A stretch of DNA of 64,000 bases from Glaucostegus cemiculus. Lineage: Eukaryota. Both the position numbers and the translations under genes were made by a program. Positions 375 through 54,400 of the stretch are shown piece after piece. The notes beneath the pieces were generated by a model. That model did no database searches, had not been told where the DNA came from, and saw only the letters and a list, made by a program, of their open reading frames with translations. The stretch spans positions 3,472,001 to 3,536,000 of the forward strand of contig CDPCPM010000054.1 of the NCBI GenBank assembly GCA_976551045.1, in the 5' to 3' direction. Each line of letters opens with the position of its first letter. The first letter of the stretch is position 1.

Positions 375-652
375 ACAGCACTTTCAAAACCCACAATCTC
401 GACCTGCTAGAAGTACAAGGGCAGAGAAAGCATGAAAATACACCATCCTGCCTTCAAAATATATCACAATTCCTTCATCATCACTGGGTCAAAATCCTGA
501 AATTCTCACTCTCACAGCATTGTACCAATACCTCAAGGACTGCAACAGTTCAAGAAGGCAGCTCACCACCACCTTCCCAAGGGCAATTAAGGATATGCAA
601 TTAAATGCTGGCTCAAGCTGTAAAGTCCACATCCCTTGAATGAGTAATAAAA
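375..652 (+). mobile_element. 3' end of a second LINE family (CR1/L2 group) ending gggcaatta...aaatgctggc...aatga
   Basis: Same sequence recurs at ~14700-15105, ~27860-28095 and ~33005-33210. Confidence 0.7.
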
Positions 653-2849: not shown

Positions 2850-5800
2850 AGTCCAGGCAAAATCCTGATAAACCTCCACATCATTCCTATAGTGTGGTGA
2901 CTAGATCTCCACACAATACTCCAAATGTGGTCGAGCCAAACTTTTATACAGCTGCAACATGACTTGCCATCCTTTGTACCCTATGCCCTGACCAATGAAG
3001 GCAATCATGCTGTACGCTATCTGTTGGTGTTGCAAGTTTCAGGGACCTATTGACCTGTACCCCAAGATCCTTCTATATATCAATGCTCCTTAGGGCCATG
3101 CTATTTAATGTATATTTTCCTCCTGCATCTGCGAACTTATACATCTACATCTAAATCACTATGCACATTACAGACAGCAAGGGTCCCAGCACTTACACAA
3201 AAATGACCCTCCACCATGACATTCTGTCTCCTATTGCCAAGCCAAGTTTGGATCCAATTTGCCAACTTGGCCTGGATCCCAAGGTCCCGAACTTTTTAGA
3301 CCTTTCTCCCATGTGGGATCTTGTTAAAATCCCAACTGAAGTCCTGGTAAAACATATCTACAGCACTATCCTCATCAATACCATTTGCTACCACTTCAAA
3401 GGTTCAATTTGATTGTTCAGGCAGGATCGGCATTTGACAAAGCCATGCTAGCTATTTCTGATTGGACTTTGCCATTCAAAGTAATCGTTAATCCGCTCCC
3501 TCAGATTTTTTCTCCAATAATTTCCCTACCACTGGTGTTAGGCTCACAAGCTTTTCCCTGCTGCTCTTCTTGTAAAGGGGGACTACTTCTTCCATACTCC
3601 AGTCATCTGCTACCTCGTCTGCAGTTAATGAAGATTCAAAAATCTCACCCAGAGCCCCAACAACTTCTTCCATTACATCCCGCAGCAGCCTAGGAGAAAT
3701 CTCATCCCGTCCTGGGGATTTATGCACCTTTAAGACCATTAAGGCATCTAGTACCTCCTCTGTGTTTATGGAGACTTGCATTAGAATTTCACTTTGTACT
3801 TCACTGAGTTCTCCAATGACAAAGTCTGTTTCCTCTGTGAATACTGATGAAAAGTATTTATTTAGGAGCTCACCTAAACATAGAACATAGAACGATGCAG
3901 CACTGAACAGGCTATTCAGCCCACGATATTGTGCCGACCTTTATGCCAATTTATACTGAATGTCCTCTTCCTGTGGATCATCCTTATCCCTCCATTCCCT
4001 TCATATTCATGTGTCTATCTAAAAGTTTATGTCTATTAATCTCCATCAAATTGCCTACTTCCACTACTACCCCTGGTAACCCATTCCACGCACCTACCAC
4101 TCTCTGTCTAAAAAACATGCCCCTCACGTCACATTTAAATTTCCTGCGCTCTAACCTTAAAAGCATGTCCTCTGGTGTTTGACTTTTCTACCCTGGGTAA
4201 AAGATTCTGACTGTCTACCCTGACTTTGCATCTCATAACTTTAGAAACACTTAGGTCTCCCCTCAGCCTTCAAAACTCGAGGGAGAACAACCCAAGTTTG
4301 TCCAACCTGTCCTTATAGCTCATGCTCTCTAATCCAGGCAGCATCCTGGTAAACCTGTTCTGCACCCTTTCTACAGTCTCCATATCCTTCCTGTAATGAG
4401 GTGACCAGGGCTGCACACAATACTCCAAAGTGCGGTCTGACTGAAGTTTATATAGCTGCAGCATGACTTCCTTACTCTGATACTCAACACTCCTACTAAT
4501 GAAGGCAAGCATTTCATACACCTTCTTTACCACCTAATCCACTTGCATAGCCACTTTCAGTGAACTATGAATCTGGACCCCAAGATCCCTCTGTACCTCA
4601 ATGCTATTGAGGTATCTACCATTAACTGCATACTTTCACCTAACACTTGCCTGAATTAAACTCCATCTGCCACTTCTCTGCCCATATCTCTAACTGATCT
4701 ACATCCTGCTGTATTCTTTGATAATCCTTTACATTATCCACACTACCACCAATTTTGGTGCCATCTGCAAACTTGCTAATCCACCCATCTGTATTTTCAT
4801 CCAAGTCATTGATATATACCATAACAAACAGAGGTCCCAGCACGGATCCTTGCGGAATCCCACTGGTCACAGACCTCCAGCCAGAATAACAGCCTTCCAC
4901 CCCTACTCTCTGTCTTCTCTGGGCAAGCCAGTTCCGAATCCAAACTTGCAATTCACGCTGGATCCCATGCATCTTTATCTTCTGAATCAACCTACCATCA
5001 GGGACCTCATTAAATGCCTTCCAAATTCCATGCAGATATCGTCCACTGCCTTCCCCTCATCAAGCACCTTTGTCACTTCCTCAAAAAAACGCAATCAAAT
5101 TTTTAAGGTATGACCTGCCCCACACAAAGCCATTCTGACTGTCCTTAAGCGGCCATGCCTTTCCAAATGCACATGAATCCTATCCCTCCGATCCTCTCCA
5201 ATAGCTTCCTTATACCTTGTGGCTTCATGCACAGGTTGCTCCTGTTGCCCCTTATGGCCCTACTCTTTCCCGAGTTACTTTTTTTGCCCTTAATATATTC
5301 ATAAAGTGCCTTAATCTTGTTTGCCAGTAACATTTCATGTCTGTTAATTTCCTTTATAAGTAGTGCCTCTGTACACATTGATGGGCCTTCGCCATTTTTA
5401 TTTCCCTATTCCTGATATATGCTACCTTTTTTCTCTTTATCCAGTGGTCAATATCACCTGACATGCAGGGTTCCCTGTACTTGTTACCTTTGGCTTTCAG
5501 CCTTACAGGAACATGTTGGTCCTGAAATCTCATTATTTCTTCTTTGAGTGTATCCCATGGAAATGCAAATGCAAGTAACTGCTTGCCAGGCCTTGTCTTA
5601 TTTTAATGAAATCCCCCTTCCTCCAATTTAAGACCTTTATTCCTGTTCCATCACAATTTTCTATAACCACTATCTCCAATATGCTCCCCCACTGACACTC
5701 CCTCCACTTGACCGGCTACATTCCCAAAGATAAGATCCAGTAATGCTTCTTTCTTCATTAGTCTATCTCCATACTGTGCCAAAAAGCTCTCCTGGATATA

Positions 5801-5850: not shown

Positions 5851-6759
5851 TAAATACTTTGGCGTTTCTGACTCTGCAGAGGTCCCAATGTTTCCTCAAA
5901 AGACAGATCACAACTTTATTAATTTAAATAGGCTCTAGGTTCTTTTTTTAAAAGTTCATAGTGCCTAATTATGTCATGTCAAAGAGAAAAAGAACACAGA
6001 GTTCCCTACCTGTGCTGGCATGAATTCTTCATTTCTGAATGAGCACCAATTTCTCCAGGTTTGCTCCTGAGGTAAGGGGTCATATTAGTGTTACTAATGG
6101 TGTTACTATCATTAGCAATGCTACCGCTGACAAGCTCTATCACACTACTGTCTAGAGGTATAAAAGATACTGCTGCTCAATGTGGACACTTACATAATGG
6201 GAATCTTGATAAAGCCATGTTAACATTAGAGCTTTAAATGCATTTTAGAGTGGAACGTTGTGACCAATCTGGCATCTTTAAAATGTTTTGTCTGTATTCT
6301 TCCTAATTCTGAAATTTCCGAATTCATCATCCACAGTAAGACTGAAGCAGTCTGTTGCATCAGGATTGAATACTATGGTATTGGTGTAGAGATTTGATTA
6401 CACTGTGCTCTGTGCTGGGAATGAAGGGAAATAAATTGGAATTTCACATGATTTGGTGAAGTTCTAGTAATCCTAGTCAGCTGGCACAGTACCTAACCTG
6501 GTGAGGAGAACAAGACATAGTCGATGTATCAGGAGTGAATGGGCTGTGGATTTGGTGTTCTTTTATTTGGAGTTGAAAGGAAAGAGTTAGTTTGTACAAG
6601 ACATTAGAGATTTACAAAGTGGGATTGACTAAGAAGGAATTTCGGTAAAGCACTCATGCAACAGGAGTGAACAGGAAGTGAATTGCTCCACTAAGATTCT
6701 ACTGAATCTGTCCATCATATTCTGTGCTTGAATGAAGAATGTACTTTGTCGTTTAAGAT

Positions 6760-15494: not shown

Positions 15495-18400
15495 AGAGTT
15501 GGCATGTCCTCTATAAGGGTAAGAAACAAAGATGGTTCATTTAGGGAACCTACGTTAATGAAGGATACTGAAGGTTTGAGCAGGTAAAAGAAGGAAGTGT
15601 ATGTCAAGTATAGGAAACTGGTATTGAACAATTTCTTTGAATTTTATCGCAGATAGAGGAGAGATCTTAAGAAAGAAATTATGAGGATAAAAGCGGCCAA
15701 GAAATGACCTTGGTAAGTAGAATTATGGAGAATCCTAAAACTTTTAAGTAGATTAGAAGCTAGAGGGTAGCTACGGGAAGAGTATGTCCCCTCAGGACCA
15801 AAGGGGTAATCTATGCATGGCAGCAGGGGGTATGAGCGAGGTCCTAAATCTCATAAGTATTCACCAGTGAGAAAGCTGTGAAGACTGCAGAGTTAAGGAA
15901 CGGATATTCTGATACTCTGGAGCATGTCTGTATCAGGAAGGTGGAAGTGTTAGAAATATTGGTTCACATTAGAATGGATAATTCATCAGGGCCTGATTGA
16001 ATCTATCCCAGGATGCTAAGGGAAACAAGGGAAGAGATTGCCGAGGCTCTGATGGAGAATTTTTCATCTTCATTAGTCATGGGTGAGGTAACAAAAGCCT
16101 GGAGGATAGCGAATGAACATGGAACATAAAACAGTACAACACAGTATGGGCCCTTCAGCCCACAATGTTGTGCCAACCTATATAAGCTTACTCCATGATC
16201 AATCTAACCCTTCCCTCCTACACAGCCCATGACCCTCCATTTTCTGACAACCATGTGCCTATCAAGAGTCTTTTAAATGTCCCCATTGTATCAACTTCTA
16301 CCACCAACCCTGGAAGTGTGTTCCAGGCACCCAATACTCACTGTGTAAAAAAACCTACTTTTGACATCTCCCCTAAACTTTCCTCGACTCACCTTAAACG
16401 GATGTCCTCTGGTATTAGCCATTGCCACCCTGGGAAAAAGGTGCTGGCTGTCCATTCTCTCTATGCCTCTTGTAATCTTATACACCTCTTTCAAGTCGAC
16501 TCTCATCCTCTGTCGCTCCTAAGAGAAAAGCCCTAGCTTGTTCAACCGTTCCTCATAAGACATGTTCTCTATTCCAGGCAGCATCTTCATAAATCTCCTC
16601 TGCACCCTCTCAGAAGCTTCCACATCCTTCCTATAATGAGGTGACCAGAACTGAGCACAATACTCAGAGTGTGATCTAACCAGAGTTTTATAGAGCTGCG
16701 ACATTACCTTGAGGCTCTTGAACTCAATCCCCCAACTAATGAAGGCCAGCACATCATATGCATTCTTAACCACCCTAACAACTTGTGAGGCACCTTTGAG
16801 GGATCTATGGACTGAAACTCCAAGATCCCTCTTCTCCTCCACACTGCTGAGGATCCTGTCATTAACCTTGTACTCCGCCTTCAAGTCTGATCTTCCAAAG
16901 TGTATCACTTCACACTTTTCTGGACTGAACTCCATCTGCTACTTCTCTGCCCAAATCTGTATCTGTCTATATCCCATTGTAACCTAGGACATCATTCCAC
17001 AACACCTCCAACCTTTGCGTCATTTGCACATTTACTAACCCACCCCTCCACTTCCTCATCCAAGTCATTTATAAAAATCACAAAAAGCAGTGGTCCCTGA
17101 ACAGATCCCTGTGGAACACCACTAGTCACCAACCTCCAGGCACAACACGTTCCATATACTACCACCCTCTGCCTTCTGTGGGCAAGCCAATTCCAAATCC
17201 ACGTATCCAAGTTTCCATGGATCCCATGCCTCATGACTTTCTAGATGAGCCTATCATGGGGAACCTTGTCAAATGTCTTACTGAAGTCCATATACACCAC
17301 ATCCATCACTCTACCTTCATCAATTTGTTTTGTCACCGCTTCAAAAAACTCCATTAGGCTCGTGAAGCATGACCTGCTCCTCACAAGGCCATGCTGACTA
17401 TCCCTAATAAGACTATGTTTCTCCAAATGCTCGTAAATCCTGTCCCTAAGAATCCTCTCCAACAGTTTGCTCACTGCTAATGCAAGACTCATTGGTCTAT
17501 AATTCCCAGGATTATCCCTATTATCTTTCTTGAACAACGGAACATTTGACATCCTCAGTCCTCTGGTACCACTCCTGTGGCCAGGGAGGACATAAAGATC
17601 ATCGTCAACACCCCAACAATCTCTTCCCTCTTTTCCCATAGTAACCTGGGGTATATCCCTGAGCAGTCCTACCCTCACATACATGTAAAACATCTTGGGG
17701 TTCTCCTTAATCCTACTTGCCAAGACCTTCTCATGTAAATCCCTTCTTAGGCTCCTTCCTGGCTACCTTATAATTCTCGAGACACCTGTCTGATTTTTGC
17801 TTCCTAAACCTTAAGTATGCTTCCTTCTTCCTCTTGACTAAATGTTCCACCTCTCTTGTCACCCACCGTTCATTTACCCTACCATCATTCCCCTGTCTCA
17901 GTGGGACAAACCTATCCAGAATCCCATGCAAGTTGTCCATAAACAACCTTCACATTTCTGCTGTGTATTTCCCTGAGAACATCTGTTCCCAATTTATGCT
18001 CCCAAGTTCCTGCCTAAAACCATCGTAATTTAGCCCTGCCCCCAAGTAAATGCTTTCCCATATCGTCTGCTCCTATTCCTGTCCATAGCTATGCTAAAGG
18101 TCAGGGAGTTGTGGTCACTATCTCCAAAATACTTCCCCCACCGAGAGGTCTATCACCTGACCAGATTCATTGCCTAGTACTAGATCCAGACTGTGTCAGG
18201 AATCCTTCCTGGACACACCTGACAAATTCTGTTCCATCTAAACCTTTGACACTCGGGAGGTGCCAAGCAATACTGGAAGTTGAAGTCACCCATGACAACA
18301 ACCCTGTTATTTTTGCACTTTTCTAAAATCTGCCAACTTATCTGCTCCTTGGTGTCCCAGTGACTCTTTGGGGGGGTGGGGGTGGAGGGGGGCACTATAG

Positions 18401-20634: not shown

Positions 20635-22540
20635 ACCATAGAACCAGAGAACAACACAGCACAATACAGGCCCTTCGCCCACCATGTTGTGCTGTCCATC
20701 AAGCCGCACCTCACTATCTAACCCTTTCCTCCCACATATCCCTCTATCCCACATTCCTCTATATGTCTATCCAACAATTGAACCTGTCCAACGTATCTGC
20801 CTCCACCATCACCCCAGGCAGTGCATTCCAGGCACCAACCACTCTCTGGTTGAAAAACCTCCCTCTGACATCTCCCCTGAACTTCCCACCCATAACCTTA
20901 AAGCCATGCTCTCGTCTTGAGCATTGGTGCACTGGGAAAGAGGCGCTGGCTGTCTACTCTATCTATTCCTCTCAATATTTTATACACCTCTATCAAGTCT
21001 CCTCTCCTCCTCCTCCTCTCCCATAAGTAAAGCCCTTGCACCTTAAGCCTCACCTCATATTCCATACCCTCTAATCCAGGCATCATCCTGGTAAATCTCC
21101 TCTGTACCCTCTCCAACGCCTCCACATCCTTCCTATAATGTGGTGACCAGAACTGAACACAGTACTCTAAGTGTGGTCTAATCAGAGTTTTGTAAAGCTG
21201 CATCATCACTTCGCAGCTCTTAAACTCAATCCCACGACTTATGAAAGCTAACATCCCATAGGCCTTCTTAACTGCCCTATCCATCTGCGAGGCAACTTTC
21301 AGTGAATTGTGAATATCAACCTCCAGATCACTCTGCTCCTCACCACTGCCCAGTACCTTGCCATTTACCTTGTACTCTGCCCTGGAGTTTGTCCTTCCAA
21401 AGTGTACCACCTCACACTTCTCTGGATTGAACTCCATCTGCCACTTGTCCACCCAGCTCTGCATCCTATCAATACCCCTCTGTAAGCTCCAACAGTCCTC
21501 CACACTATCCACTACACCGCCGATCTTAGTGTCATCCACAAATTTACTAACCCAGCCTTCCATCCCCTCATTTAAGTCATCTATAAATATAACAAAAAGT
21601 GACTGTGATCACTAGTCACAGCCCTCCAATCGGAGGGTACTCCCTCCACCACAACCCTCTGCTTTCTACAAACAAGCCAATTCCTAATCCACACAGCCAA
21701 GCTTCCCTGGATCCCATGACCTCTGACCTTCTGAAGAAGCCTACCATAAGAAACCTTATCAAATACCTTACTAAAATCCATGTAGACCACATCCACCACA
21801 CTACCCTCAACAATCTTCCTTGTCACCTCCTCAAAGAACTCTATCAGGCTTCTGAGGCAAGTTCTTCCCTTCATAAAGCCATGCTGGCTGTCCCTAATCA
21901 GTCCATAATTCTCTAGGTGTTCATAGATCTTATCCCTTAGAATTCTTTCTAACAGCTTACACACCACAGACGTGAGACTCACCGGTCTGTAATTCCCTGG
22001 ACTATCACTACTACCTTTTTTGAAAAGGGGACAACATTCGCCACCCTCCAATCCTCCGGTACCATCCCCGTGGACAACGAGGACTCAAAGATCCTTACCA
22101 GCGGCTCAACAATCTCCTCCCTCATCTCACGAAGCAGCCTGGGGAATATTGCATCAGGCCCCGGAGACTTATCTGTCTTGATATTATTCAACAACTTCAA
22201 CACATCGTCTCCCTTGATACCTACATACTCAAGAACATTACCCTTACCAACAGTCTCTACCATGTCATCAAGACCCCTCTCCTTGGTGAATACCGAAGAG
22301 AAGTATTCATTAAGAAATTCTCCCACTTCCGCCGCCTCCAGGCGCATCCTCCCACCTTTGTCTTTAATCGGACCTACCTTTACCCTAGCCATCCTTCTGC
22401 GTGAAAAAAGCCTTGGGATTTTCCTTAACCCTACTAGCCAACGCCTTTTCATGTCCCCTTCTAGCTCTCCTCAGCCCTTTCTTAAGTTCCTTCCTTACTA
22501 CGCTATATTCCTCATGGGCCCTGTCTGAGCCTTGCTGCTT
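20635..22540 (-). mobile_element. Young CR1 LINE, 5'-truncated
   Basis: Long open pieces (KSPGPDAIFPRLL, KFVDDTKIGG, LEYCVQFWSP); same subfamily as the 43361 and 51442 copies. Confidence 0.93.
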
Positions 22541-24822: not shown

Positions 24823-25462
24823 AATGTCAATGTCACACTTCGCTGTAATCAAAATATTGAATAATCTGATGATGGGGGCCAAGAGGAATGGGAAGGTCCT
24901 TGTTGTTGTTTTCAGAGATCTAGCAAAGGCATTTGACTCTGTTGGCCATAAGCTTATTATTAAAAGTTTTGGGCAGGATGGGGGTTGGTGTCCATCTTGT
25001 CAACCTTGCCACTGATTTATATTCAACCCTGACTACTTTTTATAATTTTTAAAAAAATTTTTTTATTTACAGCGTGGTAACAGGCCCTTTCAGCCCAACA
25101 AGTCCGCGCCGCCCATTTTAAACCCCCAAATTAACCTACCCGTACGTCTTTTAGAATGTGGGAGGAAACCGGAGCACCCGGAGGAAACCCACGCAGACAC
25201 GGGAGAACGTACAAACTCCTTACAGTCAGCGACGGGAACCGAACCCCGATCGCTGGCGCTGTAACAGCATCGGGCTAACCGCTACGCTATCGTGCCGCTT
25301 ATTGAGAACAGTAAGGCCAAGACCAGACCCACTTCTATCATGAGAGGGGCTAAGCAAGCCACTCCGCTCCCACTCCCCCACCCTTTTATTTAACATTATG
25401 ATGGTCACTGATTATGTTCACTGGATAGCATTGGGTGCAATTTTTATTTAGGAACAAAGTGT
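24823..25462 (+). mobile_element. R2-like (RLE-type non-LTR) reverse-transcriptase fragment interrupted by a SINE
   Basis: Reconstructed across frameshifts: IKILNNLMMGAKRNGKVLVVVFRDLAKAFDSVGHKLIIKS-LGRMGVGVHLVNLATDLYSTLTT-[SINE]-IENSKAKTRPTSIMRGAKQ..PTLLFNIMM..SLDSIGCNFYLG. Confidence 0.7.
25037..25298 (-). mobile_element. Young tRNA-derived SINE (2593 family)
   Basis: Reverse complement of the 2593 and 26352 copies, CpG-rich, with T-rich tail. Confidence 0.9.
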
Positions 25463-26218: not shown

Positions 26219-26895
26219 CAATAAAACTCTGATAATCTGGCACACTTGGGATGTTATTGGATGTGGATTGGCAGATTTTCCAAACTATTGGATGTTGTCT
26301 TTGTTAATACTCCAAACACTTTTAATTCATTGCTTTCAGATGTTACATCGTGGGCGGCACGATAGCGTAGCGGTTAGAGCGACGCTGTTACAGCGCCAGC
26401 GATCGGGGTTTGATTCCCGTCACTGACTGTAAGGAGTTTGTACGTTCTCCCGTGTCTGCATGGGTTTCCTCCGGGTGCTCCGGTTTCCTCCTACATTCTA
26501 AAGGACGTACGGGTAGGTTAATTTGGGGGTTTGAAATGGGTGGCGCGGACCCATTGGGCCAAAAGGGCCTGTTACCACGCTGTAAATAAAAAAATGTTTA
26601 AAAACTTCAAAAATAATATTTTAATAAGTTTTCCAATAAAGATGGCAAATTTAAAGAGACTACACAAGCTGGGATAGGTGGAAAGGGAGCACAGGAATTG
26701 GGGCTCCAGTGAGTGAAAAGGGAAGGTGGGAACTGTGGGTCCCAGTGAGTAGAAAGGGAGCACGGGAACTAGGATCCTGGGTGGGATCGTTGGAACTGGG
26801 AAGGGAGTGCGGCAAGCATCACTTGGCGAGCCAAATACTGGACCATTGAGAGATAGTCAGATAGTCATTGTCAGATAGTGGATTATTGGAGTTCA
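26219..26895. mobile_element. Tigger/pogo-like MITE inserted at a TA of the minisatellite and interrupted by a SINE
   Basis: Left end TA|caataaaactctgataatctggca; right end ggattattggagtt is a partial inverted match; internal ~35-bp direct repeats at ~26680-26790. Confidence 0.55.
26352..26613 (+). mobile_element. Young tRNA-derived SINE (2593 family), full head
   Basis: gggcggcacgatagcgtagcggttag...gggcctgttaccacgctgtaaataaaa. Confidence 0.9.
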
Positions 26896-30449: not shown

Positions 30450-31950
30450 GGCACTCAGAGGACAGAAATGTAGATCGGCCGGATACCCTGCAAGCCTCTG
30501 TAACCCACAGCTACAACTGCAGCAGCCTCAGCTAACACTGCAGCACTCAGTTTTAGTGCCTTCTGTTGGTCCTGCAGTGGAAGCTGATAAATCGGCCATC
30601 AAATGCTGCATCATACTTGGTCCACAATTGTGCAAATGTAATTGGCCATCACTTCCAGACTGGAGAGGACAGCTACAGGCTCTATGCAAAATCCTGTGCC
30701 AAGTTGGTGCTGAACTCCCCATGCTACGTGACAGTGAATGCAGGCTTTCTGGCAACCCTGCCAATGCAGCAAGCACTTCATTGTGCATACCCATCAGTCT
30801 TCTTCAGTAGCCAGTCCCATCAAAGTCCTCATCTGATCACTCTGCATCCTTGAGGGTGCTGACACTTGCACTATCGTGGCCCCCTGCCATGGCTGCAGGC
30901 CACTCATGCCTGGAGATCCCACCTCTCTGCCTTCCTCTAAATTATGCACAGTATCAGTATCTGAGCTGGTTGCTGAGACAGTGAAATCGAGTGACGATGT
31001 GACTTCAGCACTGCTGCCGTCTTGCTGTCCCCCACTGCCTGGACAGGATGCAGTTCTTCGGTATCTGCAATGGAAAATGGGCAAGGGTAAAGTTATGATG
31101 CGGGGACCAGAGGGAAGTGAGAGGTGCATGCTCACGCCATTTGCAACCTGCAAACCAGAATAGAGTGTAGAGGAGGGTGTATGGAAATTTAAGTACAAGG
31201 GTACGATCCCTTTCGATGGGCTCAACCCTGGCACTGGCCACAGATACAATATAGGTGTCCGATTAATGCATAGTACTCTTCTCCATGATATTACAATGTA
31301 TAGATGAATTTGTCCTTTATTGTTAGCTGCCTCTGATTGTGTACCATCAGGGGAAGATGTGCAGGTATATGGTTTGGGTGGATATGTCTATCAGGATTGG
31401 TAACTGACAGCTCTGCAAGCTGCAAGCTGTAAGTGTGAGGCTAACGTTGGGAATAAATGTAAAAGAATGAGGTAAAGCATATGGATGTTACATAAGTGTC
31501 CTGATTAATGAAGGCAGTAGGCAGGTGGGTGATGGGGGCATTGTGCATTGAGCCAGGTCTCAGGCTGGTAATTCGACTGATGGGACATGGCATTAAGGAG
31601 GCATTCACTGACCTTGACCACATATGTGAGGTCACTGAACTTCTTGCGATGCCAAATCCAGATCCTCAGGGTTTGAGAGCTGGTAATGACCATATCTTTT
31701 TACTCTTGCTGACTCGAGGCCCCCTACAGATACAGGACATCACCCCTACATTCAAGGCCTGCTGTGCAGCATTAGAAAACCTTGGAGCTTGCACTCTCCC
31801 ACGTTGTACCACTCTTCATTGATTCCCAGGTCAGATTTACTTCCTGTGCAGCTGGCTACAACCGCTCCAGCCATGGTGCACTCCCCTTTAAGGTGTGCAA
31901 GCTGACTTCAACTGGAGCTAGCCCTCATAATACTGGCTATTTGCTGTTGT
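30450..31950 (-). pseudogene. Decayed PIF/Harbinger-type Myb/SANT-like gene with intron remnants
   Basis: Minus strand gives VQRGRVQAPRFSNAAQQAL...RIWIWHRKKFSDLTYVVK|gtcagt (Myb_DNA-bind_5-like); downstream ttgcag acceptor and an LMGMHNEVLAALAGLPESL-like segment. Confidence 0.6.
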
Positions 31951-35590: not shown

Positions 35591-35920
35591 TTTTGCTTTC
35601 AGTTTCCTGACCCTCCCTCTTTTAAATTGCATCATCTCTCAGCGTCTTTTCAACATAAAACCAATTGTTAGGAGCTTGGAGGTCTGCCATATCATTTCAC
35701 TGGAAACCTTACAAAGTGTGAAACTGCCTGATCGCATCCAGACTCTTAAAACAATAGTCTTCCCTATTTCTTTAAAAAGCTTAAACATAAATCTACAATT
35801 ACTTTATTAGAAAAGCAGTAAAACTTAAAGTAAACTAAGAGAAAACATTTCATCTTGTCATTGGATGCAAGTAAAGAGATGGTACATAGTTAAATCTATT
35901 CAAGCATAAATCAGAAAGGA

Positions 35921-35926
35921 CTATAC
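35921..35926 (-). promoter_or_regulatory. Splice donor of the BNC2 exon (AG|GTATAG, weak at +4 to +6)
   Basis: Minus strand GAC AG|GTATAG; BNC2 similarity stops here. Confidence 0.85.
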
Positions 35927-36063
35927 CTGTCTCTGCTCCTGCGAGATGGGAATGCTGCATTGCAACCTTCCACTGTGCAAACATGCATCTCCTTCAGGTG
36001 AACATTCTTGTAGTGTAACTTCACACTGTAGGAGCTTTTAAAGCTCTTCTTGCAGACGTAACA
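35927..36063 (-). other. BNC2: C2H2 zinc-finger pair 2 of BNC2 (finger 4 is completed by the next exon, not seen in this window)
   Basis: CYVC...HYKNVH then CTVEGC...RRSRD; the exon ends before the His ligands. Confidence 0.9.
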
Positions 36064-37878
36064 GATCTTGGGGTCAGGGCTGGAGCAAAGTTCACTCTCT
36101 GGTGAGTATTTCTGGGGACTGCCATATCCCATAGAAGAGGCAAAGCCTTCCTGGAGGGCAGCCATGCTCCCAGCTCCTCCGTTATACAAGCCATACTGGC
36201 TGATACTATAGAACATGTCATAGGTTGGGTCACTGAACTCCTCCTTTATTTTAATGGTTTGGGGAGGAGGGGAAATGCAGTCTTTGTCTTCATTCTTGCT
36301 GCTTGACATTTCTTCCTTATCAAAGATCTCTCTGTGTGTCTGCTCCTCATTTTCTGTGGCATCATCGCACATTTTAGACTCTGAGCCTTCAGACTCATCC
36401 TCAAAATCGCGGTCCTGCTCATGATCCTCAGAAGTAATGCTCCCCATTTTTTTATCCTCAAACCCACCAAGGCTTCTCTCATCATCTGCCTTTCTGCTGC
36501 TGTGCATGTGAATGGCAGGACTCATACCCTTGTGACCGTTGCCATTGCTCATTTCCTCATCATGAATGTCATTGTTGACATGATTCTCATTGACCTGATC
36601 CTCTTCATCAAACTCATCAGCTGCACCAATCACCTCTTTTTCTATCTTGACAGGCATACTTGATTTGCGAGACTTTTTCTTGGGGGCAAGTTCAGCTGCA
36701 AGCTCCTGGACAGTGGATGGGTGCTGCTCAGGTCCACAAGGCTGCTCCAGGCTGGCTACCACTGGCATGATGGGACTGGTAGGGAGTGAGTTCGGTGGAC
36801 TCACCATTTCACCAGAGGTCAGCAGGCTCCGGTAAAATGGAGGGACAGGCTGCACTGTTTTTAATGAAGGGAACACCAGTGGGCTTTGAAGAACTGGATC
36901 CACTGAGGACGAGCTGAAGCCCAGGGATGGCCGTCCAGGAGACGAAAGACTCAAATTTGACTTGATGCTGGATATGACGGGAGTGGCAGCTCCAGATGTG
37001 GCTCGAATGAGGTCCTTGTCTCGGTTGTTCCTCAACATTGGCATGTGCAGGCGGGGGTTGGGATTTGCACTATGTCGATTGCGACTCCTCAGGGAACTGA
37101 AGACCATGTTACAGCCTTCAATGGTGCACCTGTGCTTGATCTTCAGATGCACAGCATTGTAGTGGATCTTGAGTGTGCCTTTGTCATAGAAGGTCTTGCC
37201 ACAGGCATTGCAGACCACTCGGCCTTTCCTTGGGGTCAACCCATTCCTTCGCATCCTCTGAATCTTTGCATTCAGAATGCTGGCTTTGGAGTGGTCAGAT
37301 TTGACGGGGTCATTTGCAGGAGCTGGAGTGTGAATTGGGGACATGCTCTTCTGTTCATTTTTGGGTTCAATGTTGATGATGCTGCTGAGTGCATTCCTGC
37401 TGCCTGATTGGTCACCTCGAAAAGGTGAAACAGAGACTTCAGACTCACTGCTCTCCACACGCTCATTCTGGATGGGAAGGTTAGGTTCCCTCAGTCTCAG
37501 GCTTGGCTGTTCAAGCATGACCCCATTGGGAGGGAGGCCAAGTAGTGGAGCAGACACAGGGTTTATGTACTGGAATGGAAGCAGGAAGGCCAGGCTATTA
37601 GGGATGTTTTCAAAATGATGGATGCTGGAAGGGTTGCTGTTTTCGAGATGAGCAAGGAGGCTGGGGCTCCGTGTCCGATTGTTGCCTTCTATAAAAGTCC
37701 TGATATCGGAATCTGCTTTGGAAGTCGGCACTGCCACAGCCTGCCCTTCTTTTTCTTGGATGGCCATCAGCTCCACAATGGATTTGGTTTCTCCGAATCT
37801 CAGGAACTGCTGGAGGGTAATGATCTCCTCTTCCCGGGACATGATTGCCCAACGGTCCAGCACCTTGCCTGCAGCATC
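35927..37878 (-). CDS. BNC2: Basonuclin-2, large internal coding exon (orthologue of human exon 6), 1,952 nt, phase 0 to phase 2
   Basis: Translation [46 protein letters not shown]...[56 protein letters not shown]...[17 protein letters not shown]...[45 protein letters not shown] matches BNC2 as I know it. AG acceptor at 37880-37879 and GT donor at 35926-35925 bracket the open frame. Confidence 0.96.
36658..36684 (-). other. BNC2: Basonuclin nuclear localisation signal PKKKSRKSS
   Basis: CCC AAG AAA AAG TCT CGC AAA TCA AGT read in frame on the minus strand. Confidence 0.88.
37045..37212 (-). other. BNC2: C2H2 zinc-finger pair 1 of BNC2
   Basis: CxxC...HYNAVH followed by CxxxxC...[10 protein letters not shown] in the exon frame. 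Confidence 0.92.
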
Positions 37879-37925
37879 CTTCGGGCCATATCAAGGAAAC
37901 AACAAAGGCAAAAACAAAAAAAAAT
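37879..37925 (-). promoter_or_regulatory. Splice acceptor and polypyrimidine tract of the BNC2 exon
   Basis: Minus strand reads ...ttttgtttttgcctttgttgtttccttgatatggcccgaAG|GATGCTGCAGGC. Confidence 0.85.
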
Positions 37926-39790: not shown

Positions 39791-42700
39791 GGACAGGTAG
39801 CTAGGTGACTGTTAGGAAAGGGAAGGGGATTAGGCAGAGGTAGCAGAGCACCCCTGTGGCCGTCCCATCAACAATAAGTATACCGTTTTGGATACTGCTG
39901 GTGGGGCCGACCTACCAGGGACAAGTTGCAATGGTTGCATCTCTGGCACCAAGACGGGACCCTCAGCTCAGAAAGGAAGGAGGGAAAAGTAGAGAGCAGT
40001 AGTGATGGGGGATTCAGTAGTTAGGGGGACAGGTAGGAGATTCTGTGGGAGAGATCAAGAAGCCTGGATGGTCTGTTGCCTCCCTGGTGCCAGGATCCAT
40101 GCTATCTCAGATCGAGTTCTCAATATTCTCAGGAGGGAGGGTGAGCAGCCAGATGCTGTGGTCCATGTAGAGACCAGTGACGTGGATAGGATGGAGGAGG
40201 AGGTCCTGCAAAGAGAGTTTAGAGAATTAGGTGCAAAGTTGAAGGACAGGACCTCCAAGGTTGCAATCTCAAGATTGCTACCCATGCCACGAGCTAGTAA
40301 GGCTAGAATTAGGAGGATCATGCAGCTAAATACTTGGCTAAGGAGATGGTGCTTCTGGACAACTGGGCTTTGTTGCAGGAAAGGTGGGACCTGTTCCAAC
40401 AGGACGGTTTGCACCTGAACTGGAGGGGAACTAACATATTTGCAGGTAGGTTTGCTGGTGCTGCTCCAGGGGGTTTAAACTAGATTTTCAGGGGGAGGGG
40501 AACCAGAGTGTTACAGCAGATAGTGAAGTGGAGGAGGAAAAAGGTTATGCGAGGACTGCAGGTATGGACAGAAATCACAGGATGATATGTGATAGAAATG
40601 TTCTCAGGTGCATCTGTTTCAATGCAAGAACTATTGTAGGTAAATCAGGTGAGGTTATGGCATGGATTGGCACGTGGGATTAGACATCATTGCTATTAGT
40701 GAGACATGGTTGCAGGAGGGGCAGGACTGGCAGCTTAATGTTCTAGGGTTCCATTGCTTCAGATGTGATAGAGGGGGAGGGATGAAAGGGGGAGGAGAGG
40801 CATTACTGGTCAGGGAACAGATCACAGCTGTGTGTACACAGGACAGCCTGGAGGGCTCGTCTACAGAGGCCATATGGGTGGAGCTGAGGAACAGGAAAGG
40901 TGTGGCTACACTAATAAGGTTGAATTATAGACCGCCCAATAGTCAGAGAGAATTGGAGGAACAAATCTGTAGTGAGATAGCAGACCGATGTAAGAAACAG
41001 AATGTCATAATAGTAGGGGATTTTAACTTTCCACATACTGACTGGGATTCCCACACTGTGAAAGGGTTGGATGGTTTGGAGTTTGTCAGCTGTGTTCAGG
41101 AAAGTTTTCTAAATCAATATATAGAGGTACCAACGAGACAGAATGCAATACTTGATCTCCTATTAGGGAACCAGACAGGTCAGATGACAAAAGTATGTGT
41201 AGGTGAGCACTTTGGGTCCAGTGACCATAATGTCATTAATTTCAAGATAATTATGGATAAGGACAGGTCTGGTCCTTAAGTTTAGGTTCTAAATTGAAGA
41301 AAGGGCAATTTTGTGGAAATGAGAAAGGATCTAGGAAGAGTGGATTGGGATAAGTTGTTTTCTGGCAAGGATGTGTTCAGTAAGTAGAAGGCCTTCAAAG
41401 GCGAAATTTTGAGAATGCAGAGTTTGCATGTTCCTACCAGGATTAAAGGCAAAGTTAACAAGCATAGGGAACCTTGGTTTTCAGGGATATTGGTGCTCTG
41501 GTTAAGGAAAAGAGAGGTGTATAGCAGGTATAGGCAACTAGGAACAAATGAGGTACTTGAAGACTCTAGAAAAAGTAAGAAAATACTGAAAAAGGAAATC
41601 AGGAAGGCAAAAAGAAGACATGATGTTGCTTTGGCAGATAATGTGATGGTAAACCTGAAGGGTTTCTGCAAGTATATTAAAAGGATAGTAGGGGACAAAA
41701 TTGTTCCCCTAGAAGAACAGAGTGGAGCCTCAGGAGATGGGGGAGGTCTTAAACAATTTTTAGCATCAGTATTTACTCAGGAAACTGACATAGTGGATAT
41801 GGAAGGAAAGGAAACAAGCAATAGTGTCATAGAACATACAGAGATTAAAGAGGAGGAGGTGCTTGCTGCCTTACAGCGAATAAAGGTAGATAAATCCCCA
41901 GGGCCTGACAAGATATTTCCTCGGACATTGAGAGAGACTAGTGTAGAAATTGCAAGGGCCCTGGCAGATATATTTAAAATGTCCTTAGCCATGGGTGCAG
42001 TGCCAGAGGACTGGGGGGTAGCTCATGTTGTACCGTTGTTTAAAAAAGGCTCTAAAAGTAAACCAGGTAACTACAGGCCAGTGAGCCTGACATCAGTAGT
42101 AGGCAAATTATTGGAAGGTGTTCTGAGAGATCGGACATACAAGTATTTGGACAGCCAAGGGCTGATTAAGGATAGTTGGCATGGCTTTGTGCGTGCTAGA
42201 TTGTGTTTAATGAATCTTGTAGGGTTTTTTGAGGAGGTTACCAAGAAAGTAGATGAAGGAAAGGCTGTGGATGTTGTCTACATGGACTTTAGTAAGGCCT
42301 TTGACAAGGTCTCACTTGGGAGGTTAGTTCAGAAGGTTCAGACACTAGGTATCCATGGAAAGGTTGTAAACTGGATTCAAAATTGGTTGTGTGGGAGAAG
42401 ACCAGAGGGGTAGTGGATGATTGTTTCTCAGACTGGAGGCCTGTGACTAGTGGTGTACCTCAGGGATCTGTGCTGGGGCCATTGCTGTTTGTTGTCTATA
42501 TCAATGATCTGGATGATAATGTGATAAATTGGATCAGCAAGTTTGCTGATGACACTAAGATTGGAGGCGTAGTGGACAGCGAGGAAGGCTTTCAAAGCTT
42601 ACAGAGGGATCTGGAAGAATGGCCAGAAAATGGCAGATGGAATTTATTGCAGACAAGTGTGAGGTATCACATTTTGGAAGGACAAATCAAAGTAGGACTT

Positions 42701-44105
42701 ACACAGTAAATGGTAGGGCACTGAAAAGTGCGGAGGAACAAAGGGATCTGGGAGTTCAAATATATAATTTCCTGAAGGTAGAGTCACAGGTAGACAGGGT
42801 TGTAAAAAAGCTTTTGGCATCCTGGCATTCATAAATTAAAGTATTAAGTATAGGAGTTGGGATTTTATGGTGAGGTTGCATAAGACATTGGTGAGGCCAA
42901 ATTTGGAGTATTGTGTGCGTTTCTGGTCACCTAACTATAGGAAGGATATCAGTAAGATTGAAAGGATGTAGAGAAGATTTACGAGAACATTGCCGGGTTT
43001 TCAGGAGTTGAGTTACAGGGAAAGATTGAACAGGTTAGGACTTTATTCCTTGGACCATAGAAGAATGAGGGGAGATTTGATAGAGGTTTACAAAATTATG
43101 ATGGGTATAGACAGCGTTAATGCGAGTAGGCTCTTTCCACCTAGATTAGGAGAGATAAGTATGAAAGGACACGGCTTTAGGGTGAAAGGGGAAAGATGAG
43201 AGGGAACTTCTTCACTCAAAGAGTAGTTTGAGTGTGGCATAGGCTGCCATTTGATGTAGCAAATACGGGCTCACTCTCAAGTTTTATGAATAAATTGGAT
43301 AGATACATGGGCGGTAGAGGTCTGGAGGGTTACGGACTGGGTGCAGGTAAATGGGACTAGAACACAGAACCTTACAGCACAAAACAGGCCCTTCGGCCCA
43401 CCAAGTTGTGCCATCCTTCAAACATCTCACAATCTAACTCTTTCCTCCCACATATCCTACTATTCCACATTCTTCCATGTGCCTATCTAACAATCTCTTG
43501 AACCTGTCCATCGTATCTGCTTCTACTACCACCCCAGGCAGCGCATTCCATGCGCCAACCACTCTCTGAGTGAAAAACTTCCCTCTGACATCTCCCCTAA
43601 ACTTTCCACCCAATATCTTATAGCCATGCCCTCTTGTCTTGTGCATCTGCGCTCTGGGAAAGAGGCGCTGGCTATCAACTCTATCTATTCCTCTCAATAT
43701 CTTATACACCTCTATCAAGTCCCCTCTCATCCTCCTCCTCTCCAATGAGTAGAGCCCTAGCACCTTAAGCCTCTCCTCATATTTCATACCCTCTAATCCA
43801 GGCAGCATCCTGGTAAATCGCCTCTGTACCCTCTCCAACGCCTCCACATCCTCCCTATAATGCAGCGACCAGAACTGAACACAATATTCTAAGTGCGGCC
43901 TAACTAGAGTTTTATAAAGCAGCATCATCGCCTCTCTGCTCTTGAACTCAATCCCACGATATATAAAAGCTAACATCCCATAAGCCTTCTTAACTGCCCT
44001 ATCCACCTGCGAGGCAACTTTGAGTGAACTAGCGGAATAAAGTTTCAGCACAGACTAGAAGGGCTGAATGGCCTGTTTTCTATGCTGTAGTGTTCTATAG
44101 TTCTA
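39791..44105 (+). mobile_element. Near-full-length CR1 LINE: ORF1 SGNH esterase, APE endonuclease, RT and 3' UTR, disabled
   Basis: MGDSVVRG and CCLPGARI; DIIAISETWL, YRPPNS, VGDFNFP, SSDHN; YMDFSKAFDKV, GVPQGSVLGP, KFADDTK; stops and frameshifts. Confidence 0.94.
43361..44027 (-). mobile_element. Young CR1 3' fragment inserted in the 3' UTR of the plus-strand CR1
   Basis: Open ~200-aa C-terminal ORF2 piece; ACTAG at 43356-43360 and 44028-44032 as a candidate target-site duplication. Confidence 0.9.
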
Positions 44106-44884: not shown

Positions 44885-45600
44885 GGGTCATAGAATCACA
44901 CAGCACAGAAACAGGCCCCTCAGCTCACCATGTCCATGCTGACCATCAAGTACTCGTCTAAACCTGCACTTGGTTGGTCGCCTTCTGTGCCCTGACAGTT
45001 CATGTGCTTGCCTGGATATTTAAATTTTATATTTATATTTTTTTAATATTTTATTTACAGCGTGGTAACAGGCCCTTTCGGCCCTCCAAGCCCACGCTGC
45101 CCATTTTCAACCCCTAAATTAACCTACCCGTACGTTTTTCAGAACGTGGGAGGAAACCGGAGCACCCGGAGGAAACCCACGCAGACACGGGAGAACGTAC
45201 AAACTCCTTACAGTCAACGACGGGAATCGAACCCCGATCACTGGCACTGTAACAGCGTCACGCTAACCGCTTGTACCAGGCAGTAGCTTCTGGTTCCCTG
45301 CCTCCCTCAGGTAAAAATTCTTCCTCAGATACCCTCTAAACATCCTATCCCTTCCCTTAAACCCACATCCCCTACTTTTATACACTTCTGCAATGGAGAA
45401 AATTTTCTTACTCTCTACTCTATCTATATCTTTCGAAATGTACACCTCTGTCAAGTCTGTTCCACACCAAGAAAAACAACCCTCGCTCCATCCATCCTGT
45501 TCTCATCACAGTGAATTGTGCCCTCTCCAACACAATTGTGTCCTTCCTATAGTATGATGACCAGAACTGCACACAGTAATCTAGCTGTGGCCTAATGCTT
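44885..45600 (-). mobile_element. Old CR1 3' fragment interrupted by a SINE
   Basis: catagaatcacacagcacagaaacaggccc tail; continues after 45271 to gaccagaactgcacacagta. Confidence 0.7.
45019..45271 (-). mobile_element. Young tRNA-derived SINE (2593 family)
   Basis: ttatttacagcgtggtaacaggccc...cgggaatcgaacccc...cgctaaccgct. Confidence 0.9.
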
Positions 45601-51441: not shown

Positions 51442-54400
51442 ATAGAACCATAGAACCATAGAACAATACAGCACAATACAGGCCCTTCGGCCCACCATGT
51501 TGTGCCACCCTTCAAACCGCACCTAAGACTATCTAACCCCTTCCTCCCACATATCCCTCTATTTTAAATTCCTCCATATGCTTATCTAACAACCTCTTGA
51601 ACTTGACTAAAGTATCAGCCTCCAGCACCACCCCAGGCAGCACATTCCATGCACCAACCACTCTCTGAGTGGAAAACCTCCCACTGACATCTCCCTTGAA
51701 CTTCCCACCCATTACCTCAAAGCCATGCCCTCTTGTATTGAGCATTAGTGCCCTGGGAAAGAGGCACTGGCTGTCCACTTTATCTATTCCTCTTAATATT
51801 TTGTATACCCCTATCATGTCTCCACTCATCCTCCTTCTCTCCAATGAGTAAAGCCCCAGATCCTTTAGTCACTCCTCATAAACCATACTCTCTAATCCAG
51901 GCAGCATCCTGGTAAATCTCCTCTGCACCCTTTCCAACGCCTCCACATCCTTCCTATAATGAGGCGACCAGAAATGGACACAGTACTCTAAGTGTGGTCT
52001 AACCAGAGTTTTGTAAAGCTGCACCATTACCTCACGGCTCTTAAACTTGATCCCTTGGCTTATGAAAGTTAACATCCTATAAGCTTTCTTAACTACCCTA
52101 TCCACTTGTGAGGGAACTTTCAGTGATCTGTGGATATGAACCCACAGATCCTTCTGCTCCTCCACATGCCCTAGAATCCTGCCATTAACATTGTACTCCG
52201 CCTTGGTGTTAGTCCTTCCAAAGTGTACCACCTCCCACTTCTCCAGATTGAACTCCATCTGCCACTTGTCAGCCCAGCTCTACATCCTATCAATATCCCT
52301 CTGCAAGCTTTGACAGCCCTTCACACTATCCACAACACCACCAACATTTGTGTCATCTGCAAACTTGCTAACCCAGCCTTCCATCCCCTCACCTAAGTCT
52401 TTAATAATTATCACAAAAAGTAGAGGTCCCAGAACCAATCCCTGTGAGACACCACTAGTCACAGCCCTCCAATCTTAATGCACTCCCTCCACCACAACTC
52501 TCTGCTTTCTACAGGCAAGCCAATTCTGAATTCACATGGCCAAGTCTCCCTGGATCTCTTCCCCTCTGATCTTCTGAAGAAGCCTACCATGGGGAACCTT
52601 GTCAAACACCTTACTGAAATCCACGTAGGCCACATCTACAGCACTACCCTCATCAATCTTCCTGGTCACCTCCTCAAAGAACCCTATCAGGCTTGTGAGG
52701 CAAGATCTGCCCTTCACAAAGCCATGCTGGCTGTTCCTAATTAGTCCATGATTCTCTAAATGCTCATATATCCTATCTCTAAGAATCCTTTTGAACATCT
52801 TGCCCACCACAGATGTAAGGCTCACTGGTCTGTAATTCCCTGGACTATCCCTACTACCTTTTTTGAATAAGGGGACAACATTTGCCACTCTCCAATCCTC
52901 CACTACCATTCCCGTGGATGAGGACTCAAAGATCCTAGCCAACGGTTCAGCAATCTCTTCCCTTGTCTTGTGAAGCAGCCTGGGGAATATTCCGTCAGGA
53001 GCCGGGGACTTATCTGTCCTAATATTTTCTAACAGCTCCAACACATCCTTTCTCTTGACATCTACATGCTCCAGAACATTAACCTTACCAACACTGCCCT
53101 CAGTGTCATCAGGACCCCTCTCCTTGGTGAATACTGAAGAGAAGTTTTCATTGAGAACCTCACCCACTTCCACAACTTCCAGGGACATCTTCCCACCTTT
53201 GCCTCTAATCGGACCTACCTTTACTCTCGTCATCCTTCTGCTCCTCACGAATGAGAAAAAAGCCTTGGGATTCTCCTTTACTCTACTCACTGAAGCCTTT
53301 TCATGTCCCCTTCTTGCTCTCCTCAGCCCCTTCTTAAGTTCCTTCCTTGCTACTCTATATTCCTCACGAGCCCTATCTGATCCTTGCTGCCTATACCTTA
53401 TGTATGCTGCCTTCTTTTTCCTAACTAGTTGTTCCACCTCTTTTGTCACCCATGGTTCCTTCACCCTGCCATTCTTTCTCTGCCTCAGTGGGACAAATTT
53501 ATCCCTAACATCCTGCAAGAGATCCCTGAACATCAACCACATCTCCACAGTACATTTCCCTTCAAAAATGTCATCCCAATTTACACTCCTAAGTTCTAGC
53601 CCTATTGCCTCATAACTTGTCTTTCCCCAATTAAATATCTTCCCATCCTCTTTGCTCCTATCCTTGTCCATGACAATGCTAAAGGTGAGGGAGCAGTGGT
53701 CACTGTCCCCCAAATGCTCACCCACGGAGAGATCTGTCACCTGACCTGGTTCATTTCCTAAGACTAGATCTAATATGGATTCCCTTTAGTCTGTCCTTCA
53801 ACATACTGTGACAGGAATCTGTCCTGGACACACTTAACAAACTCTGCCCTGTCTAAACCTTTGGCACTAAGCAGGTGCCAATCAATATTTGTGAAGTTGA
53901 AGTCTCCCATGATAACAACCCTGTTATTTTTGCATCTTTCCAAAATCTGCCTTCAAATCTACTCCTTAGTATCCCTGCCGCTACAGGGGGGGGGGGGGGG
54001 GGGGCTGAAGAATACTGCCAGTAGAGTAACTTCTCCTTTCTTGTTCTTAACTTCCACCCATACTGACTCTAGAGAGGATCCTTCTACATTATCCACCCTT
54101 TCTACAGCTGTAGTAGTATCCCTGATCAGTATTGCCACCCCTCCTCCTCTTCTCACCCCCTCCCTATCCCTTTGAAAACACTGAAAAACAGGAATATTCA
54201 ATATCCATTCCTGTCCGGGTGACAGCCAAGTCTCTGCAAGAGCCATGATGTTGTAGTACCATGTATTTATTCAAGCTCTCAGTTCATCACCCTTATTCCT
54301 GATACTCTTTGCATTTAAGTAAATGCACTTTAGCCCATCCACCTTTCTACTTTTATACCCTGTACTTGCTTCTCCTTCCTCAAAGCCTCTCTGCCTGTTA

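What the first reader, a model, noticed from the sequence alone, without database searches (positions are those of the whole stretch)
35927..37878. Predicted protein-coding circular RNA from the large BNC2 exon (circBNC2 equivalent in a cartilaginous fish)
Seen: the exon is 1,952 nt (3n+2). Back-splicing its donor to its own acceptor gives ...GAC AG|G ATG CTG CAG... Translation from the ATG at 37842 (MSREEE) would run once round the circle and cross the junction into the +1 frame. It would add [25 protein letters not shown] before the TGA at 37802-37800, giving a 664-aa product with three complete fingers, the NLS and a new C-terminus. Recalled from the literature, not checked here: the orthologous human exon forms a single-exon circRNA reported to encode a ~681-aa protein by the same junction frameshift. 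Inference: this circRNA/ORF could be an ancient jawed-vertebrate feature. Caveat: the junction frame follows automatically from the conserved exon phases.
Basis: partly seen in the sequence, partly recalled or inferred. Interest (0 to 1): 0.72.

Follow-up and report, generated by a model that had tools for sequence, protein, structure and literature searches.

The report
Sawfish BNC2 exon, unproven coding circle
This is the ordinary long coding exon of the BNC2 zinc-finger gene in a sawfish-like ray; its human counterpart is reported to loop into a protein-coding circular RNA, but here no circle was seen and the predicted circle protein is likely an automatic by-product of the exon's reading-frame phases.

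Summary
The arithmetic is right: a 1,952-nt exon, AG/GT ends, a 664-aa circular ORF with a 25-aa +1-frame tail. It is the large BNC2 exon of a batoid close to Pristis pectinata. The ORF is not more than chance gives. The BNC1 paralogue yields the same design (645 aa, 11-aa tail), and synonymous resampling gives a tail of 25 aa or more in 13-24% of trials. The human tail works out at 36 aa, so the stop is not conserved. No inverted repeat pair lies within 5 kb of both exon ends. RNA reads of a near relative show sense expression; all 4 listed donor-crossing reads splice linearly, too few to exclude a circle. Human ctBNC2 rests on one primary paper. Side finding: the donor, which splits zinc finger 4, also has a repeat-derived alternative last exon at 31064-30794, open here and annotated in devil ray and skate (86/89 and 79/89 identical). 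Earlier scan notes reached similar verdicts for other 'coding circles' on other DNA.

The parts
35927..37878 (-). Large internal coding exon of BNC2 (1,952 nt, phase 0 start, phase 2 end)
   Evidence: expressed on the sense strand in 3 of 3 raw-read runs of a near relative
37879..37880 (-). Splice acceptor AG after a pyrimidine tract; upstream intron about 134.6 kb
35925..35926 (-). Splice donor GT in the middle of zinc finger 4; canonical last exon about 88.5 kb downstream
   Evidence: 4 reads spliced from here to the canonical last exon
37840..37842 (-). Internal in-frame ATG, start of the hypothetical circular ORF; also the annotated start of a linear Narcine isoform (P0006)
37803..37877 (-). 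+1-frame stretch of 25 codons that would form the circle-specific tail
   Evidence: no database protein found with it
37800..37802 (-). +1-frame TGA made by the Leu-Arg codon pair; human stop deduced 11 codons further on
37147..37215 (-). C2H2 zinc finger 1
   Evidence: Pfam PF00096, residues 222-244
37045..37128 (-). Atypical zinc finger 2
   Evidence: read from the translation; label from knowledge of basonuclin paired fingers
36664..36684 (-). Basic patch, putative nuclear localisation signal
   Evidence: translation; the review PMC13304701 names a putative NLS; its position here is recalled, not tested
35998..36066 (-). C2H2 zinc finger 3
   Evidence: Pfam PF13894, residues 605-627
35927..35979 (-). 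First half of zinc finger 4 (both Cys; both His lie in the last exon)
30794..31064 (-). Candidate alternative last exon in an old dispersed repeat; in frame with the donor, 89 aa then TGA
   Evidence: annotated in Mobula hypostoma X3 and Amblyraja radiata X8; no reads tested here
6010..6066 (-). 57-nt in-frame cassette exon that would interrupt finger 4; matches the insert in Pristis pectinata isoforms X1 and X3
26369..26626 (.). Downstream arm of the nearest inverted repeat pair spanning the exon (258 nt, 86%), 9.3 kb away
45017..45271 (.). Upstream arm of that pair, 7.1 kb away

Best explanation
This is the ordinary large coding exon of BNC2, spliced linearly to the last exon in the reads examined, and its circular reading frame is likely a by-product of exon phase rather than a selected gene. 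Shown: a phase-0 acceptor, a phase-2 donor and an internal Met force any back-spliced copy to read round once and slip into the +1 frame; the tail then runs to the first stop that synonymous codon choice happens to create. Inferred: with 135-kb and 88-kb flanking introns some back-splicing probably occurs (about even odds), as in human and mouse, but as a low-level splicing by-product that makes little or no protein. Inferred: where the animal makes a finger-4-truncated BNC2, it more likely does so by linear alternative splicing from the same donor.
For: BNC1's large exon (1,937 nt, 3n+2, ATG also at nt 37) gives a 645-aa circular ORF with an 11-aa tail; both 236-nt upstream exons give junction-crossing ORFs too. 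Synonymous resampling of the exon start, 20,000 trials each: tail of 25 aa or more in 24% (codon-usage weights) or 13% (flat); 11 of 24 +1-frame segments of the exon are 25 aa or longer; 29% of 500 in-frame start points give such a tail. Human tail deduced at 36 aa from a 1,970-nt circle and 681 aa, a different one of the nine possible stop sites in the first 40 codons. The protein under the tail is identical in 113 of 119 orthologues, which explains any tail likeness. No inverted pair within 5 kb of both ends; the best pair within 10 kb is matched by 24% of 169 sliding pseudo-exons. 4 of 4 listed donor-crossing reads go to the canonical last exon. 0 of 165 fetched proteins carry the +1 tail after the donor. 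Literature: back-splicing mostly error (PMC8365531 abstract); vector artefacts in circRNA translation (PMC7544230 abstract; bioRxiv 2020.12.10.418848).
Against: The read test is weak: 91 reads, 18-24% of each run read, library selection unknown, a relative rather than this species, only the donor end covered; 0 of 4 allows a back-splice share up to 53%, and 1 further partly laid read was not listed. Both sawfish and (by deduction) human avoid the first five possible +1 stops; singly p is about 0.24 and 0.12, jointly about 0.03-0.06 if independent, which shared ancestry makes doubtful. The human paper reports endogenous circBNC2 by northern blot with RNase R in human and mouse and endogenous ctBNC2 by a junction-peptide antibody; mouse circBnc2 was also validated by divergent RT-qPCR elsewhere, exon not stated. 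No vertebrate DNA alignment of the tail could be made.
Confidence: 0.8

Rival explanations
1. An ancient translated circle: the exon back-splices in jawed vertebrates and is translated cap-independently from the ATG at 37842 into a three-finger BNC2 whose function (CDK1/cyclin B1 scaffolding in the human paper) depends on losing the C-terminal fingers, with the tail free to vary in length.
For: Human and mouse circBNC2 and a 681-aa product reported; exon size, phases and ATG position conserved; first five possible +1 stops avoided in sawfish and, by deduction, human; long flanking introns; sharks do back-splice (4,558 circRNAs in bamboo shark liver, abstract).
Against: Same design arises in BNC1; tail length differs 25 vs 36; no close inverted repeats; no back-splice among 4 listed reads; ctBNC2 appears in 4 library papers, one primary and three reviews by title; its junction peptide was found by MS in overexpressing cells; two of the four 'intronic' knockout guides translate to residues of the coding exon just upstream, which questions circle-specific knockout.
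Confidence: 0.07
2. The circle is made and matters, but as a non-coding RNA (microRNA or protein sponge, or competitor of linear splicing that lowers full-length BNC2).
For: Sponge roles are claimed for human BNC2 circles (search listing; review passage); the 1,970-nt human circle is detected in several tissues.
Against: Nothing tested here shows a circle in this animal; several human circBNC2 reports may concern other exons (e.g. hsa_circ_0008732 in the listing); no cis-element for back-splicing stands out.
Confidence: 0.08
3. The exon is never back-spliced in this lineage; the mammalian circle depends on mammal-specific intronic repeats (Alu/DHX9-controlled in the human paper) and arose separately. 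This differs from the best explanation only in the amount of circle (none against a little).
For: Human circle tied to DHX9/ADAR1 binding of flanking introns; no close inverted pair here; circRNA repertoires linked to young transposons (PMC8516420, listing only).
Against: 14 of 28 inverted pairs in the window span the exon, though distant; very long introns are recalled to favour back-splicing.
Confidence: 0.05

Closest known systems
Human/mouse circBNC2 encoding ctBNC2, 681 aa (PMC9622807; sections 6 and 7 read whole, passages of results, discussion and methods, 6 supplements searched; the main supplementary PDF with the ORF sequence could not be read)
   Same: Single-exon BNC2 circle with a junction-specific peptide and a TGA stop. 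The paper calls it 'exon 2' and gives no coordinates in the main text, but only the large exon can hold 681 aa, and 1,970 nt with the ATG at nt 37 gives 645+36 = 681 (inference).
   Different: Tail 25 aa here against 36; no circle, IRES activity or peptide shown here; no close inverted repeats.
hsa_circ_0086414, chr9:16435552-16437522 (PMC6978993 passage; PMC9028053 passages)
   Same: 1,970-nt BNC2 circle, the size expected for the orthologous exon.
   Different: Described as a biomarker/non-coding RNA; evidence is human only.
circZNF609 (PMC7544230 abstract; PMC5387670 listing)
   Same: A circle from a zinc-finger gene with a claimed translated ORF; that it is a single exon whose stop arises after the junction is recalled.
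   Different: Its translation was traced to trans-splicing by-products of overexpression plasmids and no endogenous protein was found; circZNF609 uses the host start codon (recalled), whereas BNC2 would use an internal Met.
Human linear BNC2 isoform ENST00000418777 / NM_001317939, 860 aa (PMC6506863 passages)
   Same: A short BNC2 isoform; its p.Arg853* variant at chr9:16435054 lies about 0.5 kb past the large exon's donor, so it ends in an alternative last exon and lacks the end of finger 4 (inference from the coordinates). The batoid exon at 31064-30794 would give the same kind of product.
   Different: The batoid exon lies 4.9 kb from the donor, in an old dispersed repeat, with an 89-aa tail unlike the marsupial insert seen at this junction; likely a separate origin.

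Membership tests
BNC2 (basonuclin-2) orthologues | Protein identity to annotated BNC2, above BNC1 | tested here: met
   647 of 650 residues identical to Pristis pectinata BNC2; BNC1 is a separate locus at 47% identity
BNC2 (basonuclin-2) orthologues | Three zinc-finger pairs over a large exon and a last exon | tested here: met
   Pfam fingers; upstream and last exons found on the same contig and strand
Exonic circular RNA | Canonical donor and acceptor able to back-splice | tested here: met
   AG/GT; true of any internal exon
Exonic circular RNA | Back-splice junction reads | tested here: inconclusive
   0 of 4 listed donor-crossing reads, 91 reads in all, near relative, donor end only
Exonic circular RNA | Reverse-complementary matches close in both flanking introns | tested here: not met
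   None within 5 kb; best within 10 kb matched by 24% of 169 pseudo-exons. A common, not obligatory, feature
Exonic circular RNA | RNase R resistance | not testable with these tools
   bench test
Translated circRNA (ctBNC2 type) | Junction-crossing ORF with a new C-terminus | tested here: met
   664 aa, but BNC1 and both upstream exons meet it as well
Translated circRNA (ctBNC2 type) | Conserved circle-specific stop or tail | tested here: not met
   25 aa against 36 aa deduced for human and 11 aa in BNC1; tail sequence across species could not be aligned
Translated circRNA (ctBNC2 type) | Cap-independent initiation element | tested here: inconclusive
   200 nt before the ATG on the circle have even base composition and 3 DRACH motifs against 4.0 per 200 nt in the exon; IRES activity needs an assay
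Translated circRNA (ctBNC2 type) | Endogenous junction peptide or ribosome footprints | not testable with these tools
   No database protein found with the tail (weak, 0 of 165)

The most novel reading that the evidence does not exclude
The donor inside zinc finger 4 is an ancient switch that makes a three-finger BNC2 with its own job, and vertebrates reach it by several routes: a back-spliced, translated circle shared from rays to humans, a mammalian alternative last exon, and a batoid last exon captured from an old repeat and now under purifying selection. The truncation, not the tail sequence, would be what is conserved.
Probability: 0.08. Interest if true: 0.65.

Novelty: already known. 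Interest (0 to 1): 0.2.

Why it matters
If a translated circBNC2 were shared by rays and mammals it would be among the oldest coding circles and would give independent support to a human claim that now rests on one paper. The evidence here says instead that such an ORF is guaranteed by exon phase, so finding it in another species is no support for ctBNC2; the sawfish's earlier stop is a natural variant against a 36-aa functional tail. The more testable lead is the linear alternative last exon kept in three batoid orders.

Tried and rejected
Run search: no holder on record as RNA was listed; the contig run X1 laid 0 contigs although it held 0.59 of the words, no evidence either way. Protein search with the +1 tail, padded upstream to 41 aa, found no candidate (needs three shared 5-residue words, weak). 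Bamboo shark circRNA paper: its only readable supplement (294 characters) has no BNC2, the circRNA list was not seen. The tongue sole paper cites only human circBNC2. BNC2 not found in 3 readable supplements of PMC8365531. PMC6380039 gave no hits; PMC1567895 is not held. No non-mammalian circBNC2 came up in the listings. Intron read-through with polyadenylation (short tail, AATAAA at 35808) was considered: depth was zero at 35672-35887 in all three runs, so no support at this depth. The two Cys of the tail completing finger 4 was considered and dropped: they follow from forced codon pairs and are 5 residues off the His positions (not modelled). The alternative last exon has no Pfam family and one hit among 1.84 billion representatives; its likeness to Harbinger Myb-type remnants is recalled only. 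No earlier scan notes near this place.

Full report
Observation. The exon at 37878-35927 (-) is 1,952 nt (3n+2) with a pyrimidine tract plus AG before it and GT after it. Circularised in silico, its longest ORF starts at ATG 37842, is 664 aa, crosses the junction into the +1 frame and ends at TGA 37802-37800 after 25 new residues.

Identity. The exon's protein matches BNC2: the best of 120 listed hits (1,216 at E<=0.001) is Pristis pectinata BNC2, differing at 3 of 650 residues, so the host is a sawfish-like batoid close to, but not identical with, that record. In the own genome the upstream 236-nt exon lies about 134.6 kb away and the last exon about 88.5 kb away, and BNC1 is on another contig. 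The donor falls inside zinc finger 4: both Cys are here, both His in the last exon.

Is the circular ORF more than chance? No. The BNC1 large exon (1,937 nt, 3n+2, ATG also at nt 37) gives a 645-aa circular ORF with an 11-aa tail. The 236-nt upstream exons of both genes give junction-crossing ORFs as well (78 and 62 aa). Keeping the protein fixed and resampling synonymous codons (20,000 trials per setting), the +1 stop can fall at only nine codon pairs in the first 40 codons; a tail of 25 aa or more arises in 24% (codon-usage weights) or 13% (flat) of trials, and a random tail is already about 40% identical to the real one. Of 24 +1-frame segments in the exon 11 are 25 aa or longer. The 48 residues across the exon start are identical in 113 of 119 orthologues that carry the motif (120 examined), so main-frame constraint would explain any likeness of tails.

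Comparison with human. PMC9622807 reports circBNC2 in human and mouse kidney and liver (northern blot, RNase R, 91% human-mouse identity), an IRES-driven 681-aa protein, a junction peptide by MS in overexpressing cells, an antibody to that peptide used on endogenous samples, and binding to CDK1 and cyclin B1. It names 'exon 2' and gives no coordinates in the main text; the supplementary PDF with the sequence was too large to read. hsa_circ_0086414, a BNC2 circle, spans 1,970 nt. With the ATG at nt 37 this gives 645 residues to the junction, so 681 aa means a 36-aa tail, which is the Leu-Met stop site. This identification is my inference. Against my reading: both species avoid the first five possible stops (p about 0.24 and 0.12 singly; not independent). 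The term ctBNC2 occurs in 4 library papers, one primary. Two of the four knockout guides that the paper calls intronic translate to six-residue stretches present in 119 of 121 fetched BNC2-search proteins, in the coding exon just upstream; this may be a listing error but weakens the circle-specific knockout as written. Overexpression vectors are known to yield linear exon repeats that mimic circle translation (abstract; first quarter of the text), and most mammalian back-splicing is estimated to be error (abstract).

Biogenesis signals. Of 28 inverted pairs in the window 14 span the exon, but none has both arms within 5 kb; the nearest is 258 nt at 86%, 9.3 and 7.1 kb away, equalled by 24% of 169 sliding pseudo-exons, and its downstream arm has a better partner 1 kb off in the same intron. 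Only 26 kb of the upstream intron was examined.

RNA. Three raw-read runs and one contig run of organism A were laid on 35600-37740. 91 reads were laid (32, 49, 10; 0 contigs), mostly in the orientation of sense BNC2, with 21 fixed differences from the window (3 change a residue), so organism A is a near relative. Five reads were only partly laid; the 4 listed, all at the donor 35927, continue into the canonical last exon (compare). No joints were listed (threshold 3 reads). 0 of 4 bounds the back-splice share only below 53%, and the library selection is unknown, so this neither shows nor excludes a circle. Sharks do make circRNAs, but the list could not be searched.

What else the donor does. 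Orthologous proteins show several endings at this junction. In this genome I located three alternatives to the canonical last exon: a 27-nt microexon 7 kb above the last exon (L025; insert seen in many shark and ray isoforms), a 57-nt cassette at 6066-6010 matching P. pectinata X1 and X3, and a terminal exon at 31064-30794. The last has a good acceptor, is in frame, and encodes 89 aa that are 86/89 identical to the C-terminus of Mobula hypostoma isoform X3 and 79/89 to Amblyraja radiata X8, with the same stop. It sits in an old dispersed repeat (39 other scored matches at 65-85% identity, a floor). Its Mobula identity exceeds the loosest 89-aa stretches of the coding exon (72-76/89; binomial p about 6e-4 against 76/89, a post-hoc comparison), which suggests constraint. 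Against a coding role: three unnamed skate-like ORFs were fetched; the two aligned lack the stop and run 8 residues further (the third ends alike), the 30 or so codons of intron just above the acceptor are about as conserved, the two annotations are predictions, and no reads were tested. Humans have a verified 860-aa linear isoform ending just past the same donor (passages). So finger-4-truncated BNC2 is available by linear splicing, with no circle needed.

Verdict. An ordinary, expressed BNC2 exon. A low-level circle is about even odds by analogy with mammals and the long introns (inference); a conserved functional circle protein is unlikely (about 7%). Earlier scan notes on MAP3K4, SHPRH and N4BP2L2 circles reached like verdicts; they are unchecked and not counted as evidence.

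Noticed in passing
window 31064-30794 (-): Repeat-derived candidate alternative last exon of BNC2, in frame with the finger-4 donor, 89 aa; annotated in devil ray (86/89 identical) and thorny skate (79/89), same stop; would give a three-finger BNC2 by linear splicing. No polyadenylation hexamer until 28972.
   Followed up: partly
window 6066-6010 (-): 57-nt in-frame cassette exon (AG/GT) matching the 19-residue insert of Pristis pectinata BNC2 X1 and X3; would break finger 4 while keeping fingers 5 and 6.
   Followed up: partly
L025 about 474-500 (-), G000:C54 about 3426474-3426500: 27-nt microexon giving the 9-residue insert in finger 4 found in many shark and ray BNC2 isoforms.
   Followed up: partly
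L002 (G000:C323), BNC1 large exon: Paralogous exon with the same phases and ATG position; circular ORF 645 aa with an 11-aa tail. Serves as the control.
   Followed up: yes
PMC9622807 methods, compared: Two of four guides described as intronic translate to residues of the BNC2 coding exon upstream of the large exon; the paper's 'exon 2' numbering does not fit the canonical gene.
   Followed up: partly
window 1300-2400, 3200-5200, 16300-17800, 20900-22500, 39800-44100, 51800-53800: Many decayed LINE-like (reverse transcriptase/endonuclease-type, label recalled) copies in both introns, some in inverted pairs at 62-70% identity; a 230-260 nt SINE-like repeat at 2594-2841, 25037-25298, 26354-26626 and 45017-45271.
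   Followed up: no
window 35600-35671: Three reads of run X23 reach over the end of the laid stretch inside the intron, same orientation as the exon reads; pre-mRNA or repeat, unexplained.
   Followed up: no
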